Of a stretch of DNA of 5,125 bases, positions 1-5,125 are shown in pieces. The stretch comes from Candidatus Iainarchaeum sp. (GTDB lineage Archaea > Iainarchaeota > Iainarchaeia > Iainarchaeales > 0-14-0-20-30-16). Numbering within the stretch: position 1 is the stretch's first letter; every line of letters begins with the position of its first letter. The notes below the pieces were generated by a model. That model was not told where the DNA came from and searched no databases. It saw only the letters and a list, made by a program, of their open reading frames with translations. The stretch spans positions 1 through 5,125 of the forward strand of contig JAQTTP010000016.1 of NCBI GenBank assembly GCA_028710695.1. Reading direction: 5' to 3'. Position numbers and translations under genes: made by a program.

Positions 1-133
1 ATCCGCTCGATTTAAAAGCATCGCTCAGTATTTTCTCCAGAGTACCTACGCCCAAACCTGCCGCACCGCCAATCAAAATAGAGATACTAACTTGATGAGT
101 ACTTTCTGAAAAATCTTTTTCAAATCTTTTCAT
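1..133 (-). CDS. 5' end of an unidentified ORF running off the left edge (44 codons visible, with a hydrophobic Gly/Ala-rich segment)
   Basis: ATG at 133..131. AAGGA at 145..141 lies 7 nt upstream, and the start is 18 nt after the sodB stop codon. My translation is open to position 1: MKRFEKDFSESTHQVSISILIGGAAGLGVGTLEKILSDAFKSSG. It is absent from the supplied track, presumably because it is truncated. No family recognised. Confidence 0.4.
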   Translation of the reverse strand, partial: MKRFEKDFSESTHQVSISILIGGAAGLGVGTLEKILSDAFKSSG

Positions 134-151
134 AAAGATATCCTTGTTTGA

Positions 152-832
152 CTACGACTGCGTACGCTCGTATTCTTGCATAACATCAACATAGTCACAC
201 ACTTCATTGTTATCATTGCATGGCTGCGCGTAGCCGGAGATTGGGTCTTGTTGTGCATCAGCAAGATTATCTGAGACAAATCTCCAGTTGATAAGTCTCC
301 ACCAGCCTTCAAGATAATCAGCTCTACCGTTACGATAATCTATGTAATATGCATGTTCCCAGACATCACAGGTAAGTAATGGTATTTCATCATGACATAG
401 CGGATTATCTGCGTTTGAGTACTCTGCGATGGCAAGATTTCCATCTTTATTCAGAACAAGCCAGACCCATCCTGAGCCAAAAAGAGCCATTGCTTTGGCT
501 AAAAAAAGTTTTTTAAACTCCTCCTCTGAACCAAACGCAGCAATAATCCTATCAGAAAGTTCTACCGAACAAGTCGTAGAATTCCCGGAGAGTCCATTCC
601 AGTAGAAGTCATGGTTAAATACCTGTGCAGAATTATTGAAGATAGCGCCAGCGGAGTTTTTGATGATATATTCTAGCTCTTTATCTTCAAACTCACTGCC
701 TTGGATAAGTGTATTGAGTTTATTGACATAAGTCGCATGATGTTTACCATGATGGTAAGCTATTGTTTCAGACGAAATATAAGGTTCTAATGCTCTATCT
801 TTAAAAGGCAGCGACATGAGTTCAAGTTTCAT
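152..832 (-). CDS. sodB: Fe-type superoxide dismutase (Fe/Mn SOD family) with a ~34-aa C-terminal extension
   Basis: 226-aa ORF. It is collinear with E. coli SodB as I remember it: PFKDRALEPYIS, YHHGKHHATYV, AQVFNHDFYW, FGSGWVWL, DVWEHAYYIDYRN. Gln in the AQxFNH context and FGSGW rather than QGSGW indicate the Fe type. AAGGAG at 844..839 lies 6 nt before the ATG. Confidence 0.95.
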   Translation of the reverse strand: MKLELMSLPFKDRALEPYISSETIAYHHGKHHATYVNKLNTLIQGSEFEDKELEYIIKNSAGAIFNNSAQVFNHDFYWNGLSGNSTTCSVELSDRIIAAFGSEEEFKKLFLAKAMALFGSGWVWLVLNKDGNLAIAEYSNADNPLCHDEIPLLTCDVWEHAYYIDYRNGRADYLEGWWRLINWRFVSDNLADAQQDPISGYAQPCNDNNEVCDYVDVMQEYERTQS

Positions 833-900
833 TTTCTACTCCTTGATCTATAAGTTAATATTATCATCGTAACGGAAAAAAAATTATGTTTTACAAAAAG
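833..900 (-). promoter_or_regulatory. sodB ribosome-binding site and probable promoter region
   Basis: SD AAGGAG at 844..839. There are -10-like hexamers GATAAT (865..860) and TAATAT (863..858) on the minus strand, with a T-rich tract upstream (879..872 on the minus strand). There is no convincing -35. The exact TSS cannot be called. Confidence 0.3.
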
Positions 901-943
901 AATTGAACTAATTGGAGAAAGTTATATTTTCATAACGCTAAGG

Positions 944-969
944 ATGTCGTCCTGAGGGAAGGACGACAT
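944..969 (-). terminator. Perfect 10-bp GC-rich hairpin between nifK and sodB (possible terminator, attenuator or RNA-stability element)
   Basis: ATGTCGTCCT (944..953), loop GAGGGA, AGGACGACAT (960..969). It starts 27 nt after the nifK stop codon. On the minus-strand transcript the stem is not followed by a U tract. The T4 run lies on the plus-strand side, so a canonical intrinsic terminator is uncertain. Confidence 0.4.
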
Positions 970-995
970 TTTGGGAATAAATGAAGGGTTGATAA

Positions 996-1535
996 TTAAC
1001 GAATAAGGTCGAAAAAGTAGTCAGTTGAAGCGATACCTTTTGTATCTTCATCAAGCTTGTCAAGAACTTTGTTCGTGATCCAAGTAAGCAAATTGAGCGC
1101 TCCATCGTATCCGCTAATACTATAACGGTGTAGGTGGTGACGGTCAAATATTGGGAAACCAATATAGATTAATGGAATATTTGTATCTCTCATGAGCTCT
1201 TTACCGTAGCTGTTTCCAATCATGAAATCAACCGGTTGTGTAAAAAGTAATGAACGCATGTGCCATAAATCTTTACCAGCCCATACATGACAATCAGAGC
1301 ACGCAGGAGAAGTATCAAGCATTGCTCTCATCTCATCTTCCCAACCACGAGCTGGATTGTTACAAAGTACATGAGTCGGTTCAGCACCCATCTCTAGTAA
1401 GAATGAAACCATTCCTATTAAAAAGTCAGGGTCACCCCAGATTGCAAACTTTTTACCATGCATATATGGATAAGAATCTTGCATAGCATCTACTAAACGA
1501 CCACGTTCAGTTTTAAGTTTTTGTGGAACTTCAAC
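996..1535 (-). pseudogene. nifK: 3' fragment (C-terminal ~180 codons) of the nitrogenase MoFe protein beta chain gene; the 5' two thirds are missing from this locus
   Basis: Hallmark NifK C-terminal blocks are present: ERGRLVDAMQDS, HGKKFAIWGDPDF, DLWHMRSLLF, DFMIGNSYGK, GFPIFDRHHLHR, and the terminal DYFFDLIR. The frame stays open and NifK-like for 17 codons upstream of the track Met (VEVPQKLKTERGRLVDA, 1485..1535) and then hits TAA at 1538..1536. There is no SD before the internal Met. A vnfK/anfK paralogue cannot be fully excluded by eye. Confidence 0.85.
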
Positions 1536-1549
1536 TTAACTGTAAACAA

Positions 1550-2005
1550 CTATAATTTAATATACATCCATTCATGCTTCTCAGTAGCATAAGAAAATCC
1601 CATAGACTCATAAAAATCAACTAGTATTTTGTTCTCTTTCCCACCATCTGGATACAAAATAAGATAACTCACCCCAATATGTTCTCTGACTTCGTAGAAT
1701 TTTGATACTGAATATTCAAGTAGCAACTGAGAAACTTTGGAGTTATCAAGATGTTCATATGTGTTTGACCTGTAATCATTATTTACAAAAAGTAAATCTA
1801 TCAAGACCACAGGTTTTTTACTCTTTCCTATCATCACTTCAGAAGCTGATAAGGCTATGTATCCGAGTATTCCTCTGAGGATTGAATTTGTATCTCTGAT
1901 GGAGTAAAGTTTCGTGCTGTTATTTTGAGCCGATGATATTGCCTTGGCTAAAAGTGCTTTTTCTCTTTCTGCTTTTTTTGATGTCGCGGCTAAATTCAAC
2001 AGCAT
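1550..2005 (-). CDS. GNAT-fold acetyltransferase resembling TacT/AtaT/KacT-type toxins; probably N-terminally disrupted by a frameshift
   Basis: 151-aa ORF. The layout parallels TacT as I remember it: ILGYIALSASEV (cf. VAGFYSLATGSV), PVVLIDLLFV (cf. PVIILARLAV), EHIGVSYLILY (cf. ENIGVRAIMVH), DFYESMGF (cf. NFYIHHGF), and a short C-terminus MYIKL (cf. LFLRL). The AcCoA-loop Gly residues are not conserved (DNSKVS where HGKGLG is expected). An overlapping ORF starting at 2069 supplies a plausible missing N-terminus (see findings). Confidence 0.7.
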   Translation of the reverse strand: MLLNLAATSKKAEREKALLAKAISSAQNNSTKLYSIRDTNSILRGILGYIALSASEVMIGKSKKPVVLIDLLFVNNDYRSNTYEHLDNSKVSQLLLEYSVSKFYEVREHIGVSYLILYPDGGKENKILVDFYESMGFSYATEKHEWMYIKL

Positions 2006-2076
2006 TTAAAAGCGACCTTTTTTCTGATTTTATTTTAGAAGAGGAGTAAGAGTTGAATTTATACGGCATCTAGAGA

Positions 2077-2226
2077 TTAAGCTGCTTCGGTAATAAACTT
2101 CTTAGCTTTTACCCTTGCTACAAGCTCTTTAGGCACCTTTGCATTAAGCATTTTTTTTGCGTCTTCACCTGTCACATGTGGCGGTGATACTTGAATTACT
2201 TTACCGTTTTCATATTTGAAAGCCAT
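2077..2226 (-). CDS. Small 49-aa hypothetical protein in the antitoxin position upstream of the GNAT gene
   Basis: My translation: MAFKYENGKVIQVSPPHVTGEDAKKMLNAKVPKELVARVKAKKFITEAA, stop TAA at 2079..2077. AAAGGGG lies 6 nt before the ATG (2238..2232). An extended -10 (TGcTAAAAT) lies ~35 nt upstream. It is below the size cutoff of the supplied track. No family recognised with confidence. Confidence 0.45.
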   Translation of the reverse strand: MAFKYENGKVIQVSPPHVTGEDAKKMLNAKVPKELVARVKAKKFITEAA

Positions 2227-2260
2227 TGTAACCCCTTTATTGCAGTTATTTTATGGGTGT

Positions 2261-2294
2261 ATTTTAGCATAATTTGGTTTATGGCGAATTCGCC
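2261..2294 (-). promoter_or_regulatory. Putative promoter of the small ORF/GNAT pair, with a 12-bp perfect palindrome over the -35 position
   Basis: On the minus strand, TG-C-TAAAAT (2269..2261) is an extended -10. GGCGAATTCGCC (2283..2294) is a perfect palindrome 16-18 bp upstream. It overlaps a weak -35 (TTCGCC). Confidence 0.35.
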
Positions 2295-2472
2295 TATTTT
2301 ATAAAATGGTGCTGACACATTTTTCTTATTTATAACGAATGTTAAGAAACCACAGATGGTTGCGTATGTGGTTCCTATTTGAGATGATTGAGATATTTGC
2401 TTGCAGGTTAAAATAAAGTGATGGAGACTTAAGCATCAAGGAAAAGGAAATTCCAAATACCTGACCCCCCTT

Positions 2473-2496
2473 TACTTCTTGTTTTGTACTTCTTGT
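2473..2496. repeat. Two copies of a 10-bp direct repeat TACTTCTTGT with 14-bp periodicity just downstream of the TPR gene stop
   Basis: TACTTCTTGT occurs at 2473..2482 and 2487..2496, immediately after a C6 run (2465..2470). The repeat itself is certain. Its function is unknown. Confidence 0.5.
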
Positions 2497-2514
2497 GTAA
2501 AGTTAAGTTGGAAG

Positions 2515-3858
2515 TTAGTTAATAACTTTAATTATCTTCGCCATAATTTTTCCATTGTTTTGATTTTCTTTAAGTTTAAAAAGCACTTGAGTATTTATGT
2601 TTATATTTTCTATAAAATTTATTATGCTTGGTACGCTAAAATAATAATCTTTATTATTAGAATGCATCCATCCATCTTTGCCTCTTTCATTGTCATTAAT
2701 GATTTTTGTAATAGTTCCAGTGAGTACTTCATTAGTAGTTGTTGGAGTTTTATTTGGAACAAAAGAATGCCAATAAGTTTTTAATTCACCTAACAATTTA
2801 GTCATGTCAACCTCTTCATTTTCTACTACAAGAGAGTGCAATTCGCATAGGTCATTATTTGTCACTTGCCAACCATTTTGCTCTTTAATAGTCTTGACTA
2901 ATAAAAGATGTTTGTAAGATAAATCATTTTGTTTTTTAGTTTTTAAAATTTTGGCAATTAAAGAGATAATACCTATTTTCATCTCTATTTTTCCAAAACC
3001 ATTCATGTTAATAGCTTCGATAGCATACTCAAATGATTTTTGAATATCACCTATCTCAAAATAAAGTTCAGCTAATTCTTTTTTGATAAACCACTCTTTT
3101 TTCTTTCTAAATATTTTTTCCAAACCATCTATTGCACCTTGCATGTCTCCAAGAGCTTTTTTAGATAATGCAATTCTTCTTGCAAACCATAAATCATTAT
3201 TGTAATGGAAATTATGAAGTTTTTCTATAGCATTACTTGAAATTTCAAAACACTCTTGATATTTTCCTAGTTCAAGTAATGCTTTTGTTTGATGTTGATA
3301 CCAGTTTTCCTCATCTGATGCCATCTCCTTATTTTGACCTTTTATCTCAATAGTTGAAACATCTTTACTCAATAAATCAGGATTAAAGATATTGCAAAAC
3401 TCATGAATAAATTTATAATCTTGATTTACTTTCTCTTTTTCTGATTTAAAAGTTAGCCTAAAAATATTTGAGATGATGCTATAAGAGTATTGAGATTTTT
3501 TGCCTATTAAGAGAGGGATAATGGTTTGTACGAGGCTTAAAAATTGGTATTTATTGAACTGTTTACTTTGAACATCCTCTTTAAGTTTATCAAATATTGC
3601 CCACCCATAAGCATTAAGAACCATCTCATGAGTATTTTCATTCATCACAATATTGTACATTTCCAAAAATTTCGGTACTGCTTGAGTATTATTGGTTTTT
3701 CTAAGGGCTGTTAAAATAATCGAAACTAAATAGTTATGTTGCGTTATTTGCATCTGGGTAAATGGCTCTTTATTTATTTTAAAAAATTGCAATATCTCTC
3801 CATATTTTTCTGCTTTTTTGAGTGTAACCATCTCTTGTACAAAATTTTGAAAATCCAT
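2515..3858 (-). CDS. TPR-like helical repeat protein with a C-terminal cold-shock/S1-like (OB-fold) domain
   Basis: 447-aa ORF. The start lies 9 nt after the helicase stop, with AGAGGA in the gap. Three TPR-like units span about aa 186-285: WYQHQTKALLELGKYQECFEISSNAIEKL, LWFARRIALSKKALGDMQGAIDGLEKIF, EWFIKKELAELYFEIGDIQKSFEYAIEAI. The C-terminal ~70 aa follow the CspA pattern: GTITKI..GKDGWMHS..DYYFSV..NTQVLFKLKE..GKIMAKIIKV. Confidence 0.8.
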   Translation of the reverse strand: MDFQNFVQEMVTLKKAEKYGEILQFFKINKEPFTQMQITQHNYLVSIILTALRKTNNTQAVPKFLEMYNIVMNENTHEMVLNAYGWAIFDKLKEDVQSKQFNKYQFLSLVQTIIPLLIGKKSQYSYSIISNIFRLTFKSEKEKVNQDYKFIHEFCNIFNPDLLSKDVSTIEIKGQNKEMASDEENWYQHQTKALLELGKYQECFEISSNAIEKLHNFHYNNDLWFARRIALSKKALGDMQGAIDGLEKIFRKKKEWFIKKELAELYFEIGDIQKSFEYAIEAINMNGFGKIEMKIGIISLIAKILKTKKQNDLSYKHLLLVKTIKEQNGWQVTNNDLCELHSLVVENEEVDMTKLLGELKTYWHSFVPNKTPTTTNEVLTGTITKIINDNERGKDGWMHSNNKDYYFSVPSIINFIENININTQVLFKLKENQNNGKIMAKIIKVIN

Positions 3859-3867
3859 AATTCCTCT

Positions 3868-5125
3868 TTATTTCAATAGTGAATATATCTGTTGAACTAG
3901 TGGAAAAGAACTGTCTTTTTGATCTTGAAATTTTGTAAATTGACTCTTTCCATTATAATAAAAATCAAAAATAGCAACATCTCCATTATTCTCAAAAGTA
4001 TATCTCTCCATATAGTTTAGATGTATGATATGGTTGATTTTTATACCATGTGGATGTAATTTGTTTTGTATAAGGTGAAAATATTCTTTTAAAAAAGGTT
4101 GATTAAATTCAAACTCTTTTGGTGTATGACTTTTTTCTAAAAAAATTATTTTATGTACTAAATTTTCTAAGATATTTTTCAGCAATTTAGAGAGTATATT
4201 TGTTTCTATTGGGTCTATTTTTGTAATGATATTATTTCCATTATAATTGATTTTGAGTCTTGAAATTTCACTATTATATTCAAAAGTATAAAGTTCATGA
4301 TAAGAGTTATGCTCAACATTTATAATATTGATACCATTGGCAGTAGCAATACTGTGAATTTCTTGATAGATACTTTCCAAAAATGTGTGTGCAATTTTTT
4401 TAGTAATAATATCCACTTTATTTTCAGTATGAGTTTGGTGTGTATTTTGAGTTGGTGTTGATATTGCTGTACCAACATTTAACTTAAATACGGGTTCGTT
4501 CATAAGATAAAGATTCTGTGTTGTTCTTGTCATGGCAGTATAGAGCCATCTAAAATAGCTTTGAGATAAATAGTTTTGTGGAGTTGCACAATTGAGCAAT
4601 ACATTTTCCCATTCACTTCCTTGTGCTTTATGACAAGTAATTGCATATCCAAATTTAATTTTTAGTCCATTAAAATAAGGGTCGCTTTTAAGAGCATCTT
4701 TAAACTCTTTTGTATGCGGTCTTAACTCTGGATTTCTATATACAAAATCTACATATAATGCTTTATTTTCATCAGAACTCAAGCTTGGCTTATCAGAGTA
4801 AAGAAGATTTTCTATAATTTTGCAACGAATTAAATGGGGAATACCTTTTAAATCTTCAAACAATACTACCACATCTCTAAAAGATAATAGAACATCAATT
4901 ATTTTGCTTTTTGTTACGATGTGTCTTTGTTCTTTGACATATGAAACCTCTTTAACGATACCAAAATCACCATTAGATAAAAAAATTTCGTTTTGTGAGC
5001 TATTAGAGGCTACCATAATTTTATCTTCGGGCATAATATTGTCTTGATTGTTCGGAAAAAAATGTTCTCTGATTTGATCATTATACTCTTTGACAGAATT
5101 GTTTGAATAAGCTATGACAATATTA
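3868..5125 (-). CDS. SF1 helicase (RecD/Dda/Pif1-like, UvrD_C_2-type C-terminal core), 5'-partial, with a ~210-aa C-terminal extension containing a tandem domain duplication
   Basis: The frame stays open upstream of the track Met (5034) to the window edge: NIVIAYSNNSVKEYNDQIREHFFPNNQDNIMPEDKIMV. This resembles the 'vlA.tN.av..lN..iR ... GD.vm' region of this family. It is followed by an SH3-like NGDFGIVKEV, motif V-like FGYAITCHKAQGSEWENVLL (around 4609..4650) and motif VI-like YTAMTRTTQNLYL (4504..4542). The Walker A/B motifs lie outside the window. Confidence 0.85.
   Translation of the reverse strand, partial: NIVIAYSNNSVKEYNDQIREHFFPNNQDNIMPEDKIMVASNSSQNEIFLSNGDFGIVKEVSYVKEQRHIVTKSKIIDVLLSFRDVVVLFEDLKGIPHLIRCKIIENLLYSDKPSLSSDENKALYVDFVYRNPELRPHTKEFKDALKSDPYFNGLKIKFGYAITCHKAQGSEWENVLLNCATPQNYLSQSYFRWLYTAMTRTTQNLYLMNEPVFKLNVGTAISTPTQNTHQTHTENKVDIITKKIAHTFLESIYQEIHSIATANGINIINVEHNSYHELYTFEYNSEISRLKINYNGNNIITKIDPIETNILSKLLKNILENLVHKIIFLEKSHTPKEFEFNQPFLKEYFHLIQNKLHPHGIKINHIIHLNYMERYTFENNGDVAIFDFYYNGKSQFTKFQDQKDSSFPLVQQIYSLLK

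What the first reader, a model, noticed from the sequence alone, without database searches (positions are those of the whole stretch)
2515..5125. Tightly coupled SF1 helicase plus TPR/cold-shock-domain protein pair: candidate uncharacterised conflict or mobility module
Two long co-oriented ORFs are separated by only 9 nt, with an SD-like AGAGGA in the gap, so they are almost certainly co-translated. They sit in the most AT-rich part of an apparently foreign block next to a toxin-like GNAT. The upstream protein is an SF1 RecD/Dda/Pif1-like helicase with an extra duplicated C-terminal module. The downstream protein joins a TPR-like scaffold to a CSD/S1-like single-stranded nucleic-acid-binding barrel. 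I do not recognise this pairing as any named defence system (not Gabija, Hachiman, Zorya, Shango, Nhi, Mokosh and so on). A helicase motor plus a repeat-scaffold 'sensor' with an ssNA-binding module is a recurring logic in anti-phage and anti-plasmid systems. The mundane alternative is a replication or mobilisation helicase of the element with an accessory factor. I vaguely recall that TPR plus S1/CSD-like architectures have been catalogued in comparative-genomic conflict-system surveys (a 'TOTE' label), but I cannot verify that here.
Basis: partly seen in the sequence, partly recalled or inferred. Interest (0 to 1): 0.75.

Follow-up and report, generated by a model that had tools for sequence, protein, structure and literature searches.

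The report
TOTE-type helicase plus TPR–cold-shock pair
The two tightly linked genes are real and form a two-gene "TOTE" conflict (probable anti-phage) system that comparative genomics has already catalogued but that I could not find tested, so this is an ordinary new member, carried on foreign DNA next to a broken nitrogenase gene of a Sulfurimonas bacterium.

Summary
On the minus strand, an SF1B helicase gene (3868-5124, cut by the contig end) is followed after 9 nt (TAA-AGAGGAATT-ATG) by a 447-aa gene (2515-3858).

The helicase's "duplicated C-terminal module" is two copies of Pfam PF22721, the TATA-binding-protein (TBP)-like domain of TOTE conflict systems (E 5.5e-37). The protein also matches PADLOC candidate PDC-M16A (E 7e-139). 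The second protein is a TPR solenoid with a C-terminal five-stranded cold-shock-domain (CSD) barrel. It matches the PADLOC model "TPR fused to cold-shock-like OB" (E 2e-53).

This is the TPR-OB-TBP-Effector (TOTE) architecture named by Aravind et al. 2022 and listed among the 145 untested candidates of Payne et al. 2024.

The pair is conserved. In 50 of 54 species genomes with a close TPR-CSD homologue, a helicase-TBP gene lies directly upstream. Neighbours are mostly restriction and defence genes. No relaxase, T4SS or primase family was among the 25 most recurrent, and no plasmid carries it.

The contig is Sulfurimonas, not the archaeon it is labelled as. In relatives, a Septu-like system sits just upstream of the same adjacent 49/172-aa gene module, where the window has TOTE.

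Verdict: new member of a known, experimentally untested kind. The mechanism is inferred only.

The parts
3868..5124 (-). 3' part (418 codons plus stop) of the helicase-TBP gene, the TOTE 'TBP + effector' component. It is cut by the contig end, and about 280 N-terminal residues (Walker A and B, RecA-like domain 1A) are missing.
   Evidence: PADLOC PDC-M16A E 7e-139. The closest full-length homologues are 55% identical, 685-720 aa long, and carry PIF1/AAA_30/AAA_19 + UvrD_C_2 + TBP-TOTE.
4486..5124 (-). Helicase domain 2A with an SH3-like 2B insertion (aa 1-213 of the fragment). Motifs V and VI are conserved (YAITCHKAQGSEW, YTAMTR).
   Evidence: Pfam UvrD_C_2 E 4e-17 and SH3_13. Invariant columns in A2. 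AlphaFold model. Foldseek hits to T4 Dda, DSH9, Pif1, RecD2 and RecD.
4396..4485 (-). Predicted disordered linker (aa 214-243) between the helicase core and the TBP-like module.
   Evidence: pLDDT below 50 over residues 214-243.
3871..4395 (-). Two tandem TBP-like (alpha-beta4-alpha) domains, at about aa 244-325 and aa 340-418.
   Evidence: Pfam PF22721 TBP-TOTE, E 5.5e-37, two stretches. Model secondary structure. Foldseek match to the TBP-like N-terminal domains of E. coli RnlA (6y2q, E 2e-3).
3859..3867 (-). 9-nt intergenic gap, AGAGGAATT on the coding strand, with an SD-like GAGG 4 nt before the ATG. It indicates an operon junction.
   Evidence: Sequence. In homologous loci the gap is mostly -4 to +15 nt.
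2515..3858 (-). Complete TPR-CSD gene (447 aa), the TOTE 'TPR + OB' component.
   Evidence: PADLOC PDLC01170 'TPR repeats containing protein fused to cold shock-like domain (OB-fold)', E 2.3e-53. 280 homologues found. Model pLDDT 90.7.
2767..3858 (-). TPR-like alpha-solenoid (aa 1-364) with a beta-hairpin at aa 169-178. It carries family-invariant motifs FHYxNDxWFxRRxA and EWFIxKE.
   Evidence: Foldseek hits to consensus TPR, PPR, OGT and LGN, E 1e-6 to 1e-4.
2521..2724 (-). C-terminal five-stranded cold-shock-domain/OB barrel (aa 379-446). It has RNP1-like (GKDGW, W397) and RNP2-like (YYF, Y406 and F407) aromatic motifs.
   Evidence: Model strands. A profile of this region hits CspB over its full length (E 0.0017), Unr CSDs and a CSD-Cmr6. 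Pfam CSD hits appear in more distant family members.
2281..2514 (.). Non-coding stretch downstream of the pair. Position 2280/2281 is the boundary between TOTE cargo (no similarity to Sulfurimonas relatives) and the shared 49/172-aa module. No consensus terminator, tRNA or Rfam match was found.
1537..2280 (-). Context: a conserved Sulfurimonas two-gene module. It comprises a 49-aa gene (2077-2226) and a 172-aa divergent GNAT-like gene, which is frameshifted here and called as 151 aa (1550-2005). In relatives, a Septu-like PtuA/PtuB system lies just upstream of this module.
   Evidence: 94-96% nt identity to L086-L088. Frameshift. PtuA/PtuB hits.
996..1535 (-). Context: the 3' third of nifK (from about codon 333-338 of 514). 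It abuts the foreign block and marks its right-hand junction.
   Evidence: TIGR01286 positions 338-516. 94% nt identity to loci with intact nifK-SOD. Junction inspected base by base.

Best explanation
The pair is a two-gene TOTE-class (TPR, OB, TBP, Effector) conflict system, most probably an anti-phage or anti-mobile-element defence operon. It is carried as variable cargo in a defence slot of a Sulfurimonas chromosome.

Proposed working, all inferred: the two proteins are made from one transcript and act as a complex. The TPR-CSD protein is the sensor or regulator. Its cold-shock barrel binds single-stranded DNA or RNA exposed by an invader's replication or transcription, and its conserved TPR groove holds the partner or a trigger. 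The tandem TBP-like domains of the helicase clamp a duplex, either dsDNA or an RNA:DNA hybrid. The Dda/Pif1/RecD2-like SF1B motor is the effector. It translocates 5'->3' on ssDNA and unwinds or strips the invader's replication or recombination intermediates.

In sister systems an N-terminal NERD nuclease would add cleavage. The variant here most likely lacks a nuclease, because its closest full-length relatives are about 700 aa and start directly with the Walker A motif.

Shown: domain identities, operon structure, conserved pairing, defence-island context, foreign origin. Inferred: complex formation, ligands, helicase polarity, and the defence phenotype itself.
For: Domain identities:
- Pfam TBP-TOTE E 5.5e-37, in two copies, plus UvrD_C_2.
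- PADLOC PDC-M16A E 7e-139, and TPR-CSD model PDLC01170 E 2e-53.
- AlphaFold models at pLDDT 90.7 and 80.1.
- Fold matches to TPR proteins, to Dda/Pif1/RecD2 and to the TBP-like domains of the anti-phage toxin RnlA.
- The CSD profile hits CspB.

Operon and pairing:
- 9-nt gap with an SD-like sequence.
- 50 of 54 close TPR-CSD homologues in GTDB species genomes have a helicase-TBP gene directly upstream on the same strand. Titled source records span Bacteroidetes groups, Ignavibacteria, Patescibacteria, Thermodesulfobacteriota and Proteobacteria.

Context:
- The most recurrent families among 130 neighbour ORFs of 28 loci are ResIII, SWI2/SNF2, GmrSD/SspE-like, HsdR, DNA methylase, RnlA toxin and transposase.
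- Individual loci sit next to Fic, HicAB, ParE, YoeB, Schlafen-AlbA, ArdA and AbiC.
- In Sulfurimonas relatives, a Septu-like PtuA/PtuB lies just upstream of the same 49/172-aa module, where the window has TOTE.
- GC is 27% against 40% for the host genes.

Literature:
- TOTE is defined as TPR, OB, TBP, Effector (PMC12458937).
- PDC systems are untested candidates found embedded in BREX, DISARM and type I R-M systems (bioRxiv 10.1101/2024.01.29.577857).
Against: I found no experimental test of TOTE or PDC-M16 in the paper library, so 'defence' rests on guilt by association.

The helicase N-terminus, including Walker A and B, is not on the contig. Integrity of the motor and absence of a nuclease in this copy are therefore inferred from homologues.

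The TPR-CSD protein matches the PDC-M16B models only weakly (E 0.0044).

The CSD assignment by sequence is modest (E 0.0017), although it agrees with the predicted fold.

The neighbour analysis is qualitative. It used my own ORF calls, the tool lists only the top 25 families, and there was no background control.

A nuclease-free helicase as sole effector has no established precedent that I can cite.
Confidence: 0.7

Rival explanations
1. Abortive-infection or toxin-antitoxin-like logic. The helicase-TBP protein is intrinsically toxic, through uncontrolled unwinding or ATP consumption. The TPR-CSD protein is its restraint and releases it when the CSD or TPR senses an invader, so that the cell is arrested or killed rather than the invader being attacked directly.
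For: Tight coupling with the regulator encoded downstream. No nuclease in the closest full-length homologues. The TBP-like module resembles that of RnlA, a toxin of an anti-T4 toxin-antitoxin system (the RnlA biology is from established knowledge). Toxin-antitoxin genes are frequent neighbours.
Against: No data on toxicity. Sister variants carry NERD nuclease domains, which suggests direct nucleic-acid attack. This is a sub-variant of the defence reading, not an alternative to membership in TOTE.
Confidence: 0.15
2. Replication or mobilisation module of a mobile element. A RecD/TraA-like helicase with an accessory ssDNA-binding factor serves the element's own propagation.
For: The block is foreign, AT-rich DNA. 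Weak similarity of the 2A domain to the TraA_Ti relaxase helicase (E 0.011) and to the PADLOC 'RecD/Tra ATPase' model. Some loci have integrases or transposases nearby.
Against: No relaxase, T4SS, primase or Rep family appears among the 25 most recurrent families in neighbours of 28 loci. There is no tblastn match to the TPR-CSD protein in 72,556 plasmids, and only one weak hit (25% identity) in 50,697 phage records. The pair recurs in chromosomal restriction and defence neighbourhoods.
Confidence: 0.06
3. Housekeeping nucleic-acid metabolism. A cold-shock-type RNA or DNA chaperone with a helicase acts on host RNA or on stalled forks and R-loops.
For: CSD proteins and SF1B helicases (Pif1, RecD2) have housekeeping roles (established knowledge). 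The TBP-like domain also occurs in RNase HIII, as recalled from the literature.
Against: Distribution is patchy: 456 clusters at 50% identity among 1.84 billion representatives. The pair is absent from closely related Sulfurimonas loci, where a Septu-like system sits just upstream of the same 49/172 module. Composition is foreign and neighbours are defence genes.
Confidence: 0.05

Closest known systems
[quoted passage not shown]
   Same: All four defining parts are present: a TPR protein, a C-terminal OB/CSD on it, a TBP-like domain (two copies), and an effector (SF1B helicase) fused to the TBP. The genes are in one operon.
   Different: There is nothing categorical. This copy is truncated at the contig end and belongs to the short (about 700 aa) helicase-only effector branch, not the NERD- or DUF4145-bearing branches. 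I could not read the original review, so its definition is taken second-hand from PMC12458937 and from the Pfam description.
PADLOC phage defence candidate PDC-M16 (Payne et al. 2024, bioRxiv 10.1101/2024.01.29.577857; cassette FAM_00097>>FAM_00119; untested)
   Same: The helicase matches PDC-M16A models very strongly (E 7e-139), and it is a two-gene cassette.
   Different: The TPR-CSD protein matches PDC-M16B only at E 0.0044. It matches the older PADLOC model PDLC01170 ('TPR ... fused to cold shock-like domain') instead. PADLOC's own rule set was not run, so whether it would call PDC-M16 here was not tested.
[quoted passage not shown]
   Same: It shares the TPR-CSD fusion and a TBP protein.
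   Different: TALON is built around a YprA-family (SF2) helicase with an inactivated RNase H domain plus a NERD nuclease, and it is rare and mostly found in Chloroflexota. Here the helicase is SF1B and no YprA is present.
RnlA/LsoA (RNase LS) toxins of anti-T4 toxin-antitoxin systems
   Same: They have tandem TBP-like N-terminal domains of similar fold (Foldseek 6y2q, 4i8o). Pfam RnlA_toxin_N cross-hits the TBP region of a family member.
   Different: The RnlA effector is a HEPN RNase, with no helicase and no TPR-CSD partner.
SF1B helicases T4 Dda, Pif1, RecD2 and RecD
   Same: They share the motor fold, including the SH3-like 2B domain and motifs V and VI, so 5'->3' ssDNA translocation is expected.
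   Different: None of them carries TBP-like domains or a TPR-CSD partner. Sequence identity is only 15-21% over about 220 columns.

Membership tests
TOTE conflict system | TPR-repeat protein | tested here: met
   AlphaFold model at pLDDT 90.7, helical repeats over aa 1-364. Foldseek top hits are TPR and PPR proteins.
TOTE conflict system | OB-fold (cold-shock-like) domain fused to the TPR protein | tested here: met
   Five-stranded barrel at aa 379-446. The profile hits CspB at E 0.0017 over its full length, plus Unr CSDs. PADLOC PDLC01170 E 2e-53. Pfam CSD hits in distant family members.
TOTE conflict system | TBP-like (TATA-binding-protein fold) domain | tested here: met
   Pfam PF22721 E 5.5e-37 (cut-off 27 bits, score 125.7), two stretches. 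Two alpha-beta4-alpha units in the model, and a fold match to the RnlA TBP-like domains.
TOTE conflict system | Effector domain linked to the TBP (helicase, nuclease, RNase H and others) | tested here: met
   An SF1B helicase C-terminal half is fused upstream of the TBP domains. The N-terminal half is not on the contig. Full-length homologues have intact Walker A and B motifs.
TOTE conflict system | Components encoded as conserved gene neighbours | tested here: met
   9-nt gap in the window. 50 of 54 close homologues are paired on the same strand and adjacent.
TOTE conflict system | Biological-conflict (defence) function | not testable with these tools
   Only contextual support. No experimental paper was found.
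PADLOC PDC-M16 | PDC-M16A protein | tested here: met
   PDLC04472 E 6.9e-139, and seven further PDC-M16A models.
PADLOC PDC-M16 | PDC-M16B protein adjacent | tested here: inconclusive
   Only PDLC04481 at E 0.0044. The same weak pattern appears in L001 and L003. PADLOC's system rules were not run.
TALON | YprA-family helicase with an inactivated RNase H domain, plus a NERD nuclease | tested here: not met
   The helicase is SF1B (Dda/Pif1/RecD2-like), and no YprA or DUF1998 hit was found.
Conjugative or mobilisation helicase module | Linkage to a relaxase, T4SS, primase or Rep, or carriage on plasmids | tested here: not met
   No such family is among the 25 most recurrent in neighbours. No plasmid match. 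TraA_Ti similarity is only E 0.011, against a cut-off of 590 bits.
SF1B (RecD/Dda/Pif1) helicases | Conserved helicase motifs and 2A/2B fold | tested here: met
   Motifs V and VI are invariant. Foldseek hit to Dda at E 1e-8. Motifs I-III lie in the missing part and are seen only in homologues.

The most novel reading that the evidence does not exclude
The short TOTE branch seen here is a nuclease-free immune system. A Dda/Pif1-like helicase, guided by a TBP-like duplex or RNA:DNA-hybrid clamp and gated by a TPR-CSD ssNA sensor, is the sole effector. It would stop phages by dismantling their replication or R-loop intermediates rather than by cutting nucleic acid or killing the cell.
Probability: 0.15. 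Interest if true: 0.6.

Novelty: new member of a known kind. Interest (0 to 1): 0.3.

Why it matters
TOTE/PDC-M16 is a recurrent family: 456 clusters at 50% identity, from source records titled with many different bacterial groups. It has been predicted twice by comparative genomics, yet I found no experimental test of it, so its trigger, its ligands and the role of a TBP-like fold in immunity are open.

This window adds one more example, from Campylobacterota. It also gives a tidy natural comparison. In Sulfurimonas relatives, the position just upstream of the same 49/172-aa module holds either this pair or a Septu-like system, which supports the defence reading.

The copy itself is truncated and sits on a mis-binned 5-kb metagenomic contig. 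For experiments, complete pairs in cultured strains are better material: Lutibacter profundi and Flavobacterium piscis carry the pair, and Campylobacter peloridis has a related helicase (its partner gene was not checked).

Tried and rejected
1. Recovering the helicase N-terminus. The window is the entire contig (longest_contig 5125). The exact-protein look-up for the TPR-CSD found nothing. A 28-mer from the contig end had no exact match in metagenome contigs.

2. Reading the primary TOTE description (Aravind et al. 2022) and Makarova et al. 2011. Neither is held. The attribution of the PADLOC 'TPR' and 'RecD_like' models to Makarova 2011 is my recollection only.

3. A third system component.
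- The small ORF overlapping the helicase start in L001/L002 is an N-terminal remnant of a DrmD/BrxH-type SNF2 gene.
- The L004 upstream ORF is ParA/VirC1-like.
- Neither is conserved, so both were rejected.

4. My first TBP HMM missed the NERD-type helicases, giving 'None'. Pfam showed they do carry TBP-TOTE, and the count was redone with BLAST against verified references.

5. The inverted repeat 1532-1549 / 2493-2510 flanking the 49/172 module. Arm 1 is partly nifK sequence and the core match is only 11 of 13, so it is probably chance.

6. The apparent 9-bp microhomology at the nifK junction in BLAST was an end-extension artefact. Inspection shows a clean junction at 1535/1537.

7. Rfam, tRNA and terminator scans of the window found nothing.

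8. The 'GNAT toxin' label for the neighbour is not supported beyond a weak C-terminal motif.

9. The archaeal label 'Candidatus ainarchaeum' was rejected. SOD, nifK and the 49/172 module are 94-100% identical to contigs that are either labelled Sulfurimonas or carry the same SOD protein cluster.
Full report
**Observation**

All genes in the window are on the minus strand. The upstream ORF is open from the contig end (5124) to a TAA at 3868-3870, giving 418 codons. The downstream ORF runs 3858-2515 and encodes 447 aa. On the coding strand the junction reads TAA-AGAGGAATT-ATG: a 9-nt gap with a GAGG core 4 nt before the start codon. GC falls from about 0.41 in the SOD and nifK part to 0.23-0.32 across the pair. 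The strand is minus, and the window is a whole 5125-bp contig, so the helicase N-terminus cannot be recovered from flanks.

**The helicase-TBP protein**

- Pfam finds UvrD_C_2 (E 4e-17) and two stretches of PF22721, the 'TATA-binding-like protein domain of the TOTE conflict systems' (E 5.5e-37).
- PADLOC gives PDC-M16A at E 7e-139.
- The AlphaFold model (pLDDT 80) shows a 2A domain with an SH3-like insertion, a disordered linker at residues 214-243, and two alpha-beta4-alpha units.
- Foldseek against the PDB returns T4 Dda (E 1e-8), DSH9, Pif1, RecD2 and RecD for the motor half. For the C-terminal half it returns the TBP-like N-terminal domains of the E. coli toxin RnlA.
- The closest full-length homologues are 53-56% identical and 685-720 aa long. 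They start almost directly with GYAGTGKT (Walker A) and have IIDEASM (Walker B), so about 280 residues are missing here and a nuclease domain is unlikely in this copy.

**The TPR-CSD protein**

- It matches the PADLOC model 'TPR repeats containing protein fused to cold shock-like domain (OB-fold)' at E 2e-53.
- Its model (pLDDT 90.7) is a helical solenoid over aa 1-364 with one beta-hairpin, followed by a five-stranded barrel at aa 379-446.
- Foldseek gives TPR and PPR proteins.
- A profile of the C-terminal region hits Bacillus CspB over its full length (E 0.0017), Unr cold-shock domains and a CSD-Cmr6.
- More distant family members hit Pfam CSD directly.
- RNP1- and RNP2-like aromatics are invariant: G396, F/W397, Y406, F407.

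**What is known**

PMC12458937 defines TOTE as 'TPR, OB, TBP, Effector', citing Aravind, Iyer and Burroughs 2022. It notes that TPR-CSD and TBP genes are shared with its TALON systems. [quoted passage not shown] 2024. I found no paper in the library that tests TOTE or PDC-M16. No close homologue appeared in the fold searches of the PDB.

**Is the pair conserved?**

A scan of one genome per GTDB species with the TPR-CSD alignment returned 80 loci.

- Of 54 close homologues (HMM E<1e-100) with upstream DNA available, 50 have a helicase with TBP-like domains directly upstream on the same strand, mostly with gaps of -4 to +15 nt.
- Three effector architectures occur: helicase+TBP (about 700 aa, the window's type), NERD+helicase+TBP (about 950-1000 aa), and DUF4145+helicase+TBP.
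- Titled source records include Bacteroidetes groups (most frequent), Ignavibacteria, Patescibacteria, Thermodesulfobacteriota, Alpha- and Gammaproteobacteria, Cloacimonadota and others. Helicase hit P0146 adds Campylobacter peloridis.
- The family is modest in size: 456 clusters at 50% identity with E<=1e-30 among 1.84 billion representatives.

**Context**

- Single loci sit beside Fic, HicAB, ParE, YoeB, Schlafen-AlbA, ArdA, a D12 methylase, AbiC and integrases.
- Among 130 neighbour ORFs of 28 loci, the most recurrent families are ResIII, SWI2/SNF2, GmrSD/SspE/HEC-06-like, HsdR, N6/N4 methylase, RnlA toxin and transposase. No relaxase, T4SS or primase family is in the top 25.
- The TPR-CSD protein has no match in 72,556 plasmids and one weak match in 50,697 phage records.
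The analysis is qualitative and has no background control.

**The window's own locus**

- The contig is labelled 'Candidatus ainarchaeum' but is Sulfurimonas. Its SOD falls in a 90%-identity cluster named Sulfurimonas. Window 1-1535 is 94-100% identical to contigs that are labelled Sulfurimonas or carry the same SOD cluster.
- Window 1537-2280 (a 49-aa gene plus a 172-aa gene) is 94-96% identical to a module found in other Sulfurimonas contigs.
- In L086 and L088, a Septu-like PtuA/PtuB pair lies just upstream of that module, downstream of intact nifHDK. In the window the TOTE pair is in that position, and window 2281-5125 has no similarity to those contigs. The same position relative to the module thus holds different defence cargo.

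**Mechanism (inferred)**

- Tight coupling and strict co-occurrence argue for a complex.
- The CSD is a classic ssDNA/ssRNA binder.
- TBP-like domains in RNase HIII (as I recall) and RnlA are associated with nucleic-acid substrates.
- SF1B motors translocate 5'->3' on ssDNA.
- The simplest model has the TPR-CSD as sensor or gate, the TBP pair as a duplex or hybrid clamp, and the helicase as effector, with a NERD nuclease adding cleavage in sister variants.

Whether protection is direct or abortive is open, and no step has been tested.

**Verdict**

The finding is real and correctly interpreted, but it is a new member of a known, computationally defined family. It is of moderate-to-low interest as a discovery. 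It has some value as one more pointer to a system for which I found no experimental test, and as a natural case of TOTE or Septu-like cargo at the same position in Sulfurimonas.

Noticed in passing
window 996-1545; L093, L095, L086: nifK is truncated. Only its 3' third (from about codon 333-338 of 514) is present, and it abuts the foreign block at a clean junction (nifK homology ends at about 1535, the module starts at 1537). Close Sulfurimonas relatives have intact nifD-nifK-SOD-POR (L093, L095), and another has the related island just downstream of intact nifK (L086). So a defence island lies inside, or has replaced part of, a nitrogenase structural gene. The 5' side is off the contig, and a chimeric assembly cannot be fully excluded.
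   Followed up: partly
whole window (NCBI MAG record, locus tags PHH82_046xx): The contig is binned and named 'Candidatus ainarchaeum sp.' (a DPANN archaeon), but its SOD, nifK fragment and 49/172-aa module are 94-100% identical to contigs labelled Sulfurimonas (Campylobacterota) or carrying the same SOD cluster. This is a binning error.
   Followed up: yes
window 1537-2280 (49-aa gene 2077-2226; 172-aa gene 1550-2069): A conserved two-gene module (49 aa + 172 aa) recurs at 94-96% nt identity in different Sulfurimonas contexts (L086-L088; L089 shares only about 290 nt at 87%). These contexts are next to a Septu-like system, next to SpoU/RND efflux genes, and next to Sdh_cyt. It is possibly a toxin-antitoxin-like or mobile unit. 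The 172-aa protein has no Pfam or PADLOC hit, and the GNAT resemblance is limited to a C-terminal motif.
   Followed up: partly
window about 1969-2069: The 172-aa gene is frameshifted in the window near codon 30, at a homopolymer run. The N-terminal 30 codons are in frame -3 and the rest in frame -1. This is either a real pseudogene or an assembly error. NCBI annotates only the 151-aa remainder.
   Followed up: yes
L086 6046-9761; L088 608-4323: A Septu-like PtuA (984 aa, with a long N-terminal extension before the ATPase) and PtuB (254 aa) pair sits directly downstream of nifHDK in a Sulfurimonas MAG. It lies just upstream of the 49/172 module, where the window has the TOTE pair.
   Followed up: partly
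L070, L073, L075, L077, L082, L084, L085 (Bacteroidales MAGs, several named as Dysgonamonadaceae, Tannerellaceae or Tannerella): Proteins of 750-780 aa distantly related to the TPR-CSD protein lie immediately downstream of a roughly 326-aa ORF, which is Cas1 in L073 (the only one scanned). In the two scanned (L073, L085) they combine a BT4734-like N-terminal domain and TPR repeats; L085 also has a weak TBP-TOTE match and DUF7017. This may be a single-chain TOTE-like protein linked to CRISPR adaptation genes.
   Followed up: partly
L041 6831-11200 (Prolixibacteraceae MAG): A close TPR-CSD homologue (399 aa) has a Card1-type CARF protein and a RAMP protein upstream instead of a helicase-TBP gene. 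This is a TPR-CSD in a type III CRISPR-like context.
   Followed up: no
L001 7537-7923 (also L002, L006): A 128-aa ORF overlapping the TOTE helicase start matches only the N-terminal region (about residues 70-150) of DrmD/BrxH SNF2 helicases. It is a gene remnant, suggesting the TOTE pair displaced or inserted into a DISARM/BREX-type gene.
   Followed up: partly
window 1532-1549 and 2493-2510: An 18-nt imperfect inverted repeat (16 of 18) brackets the 49/172 module and the non-coding stretch downstream of the TPR-CSD gene. One arm is partly nifK sequence and the core is only 11 of 13, so it is probably chance.
   Followed up: yes
L064 7578-9995: In one Cytophagales locus an 805-aa protein with a Pfam CSD domain lies between the helicase-TBP gene and the TPR gene. 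This is a three-gene variant of the system.
   Followed up: no
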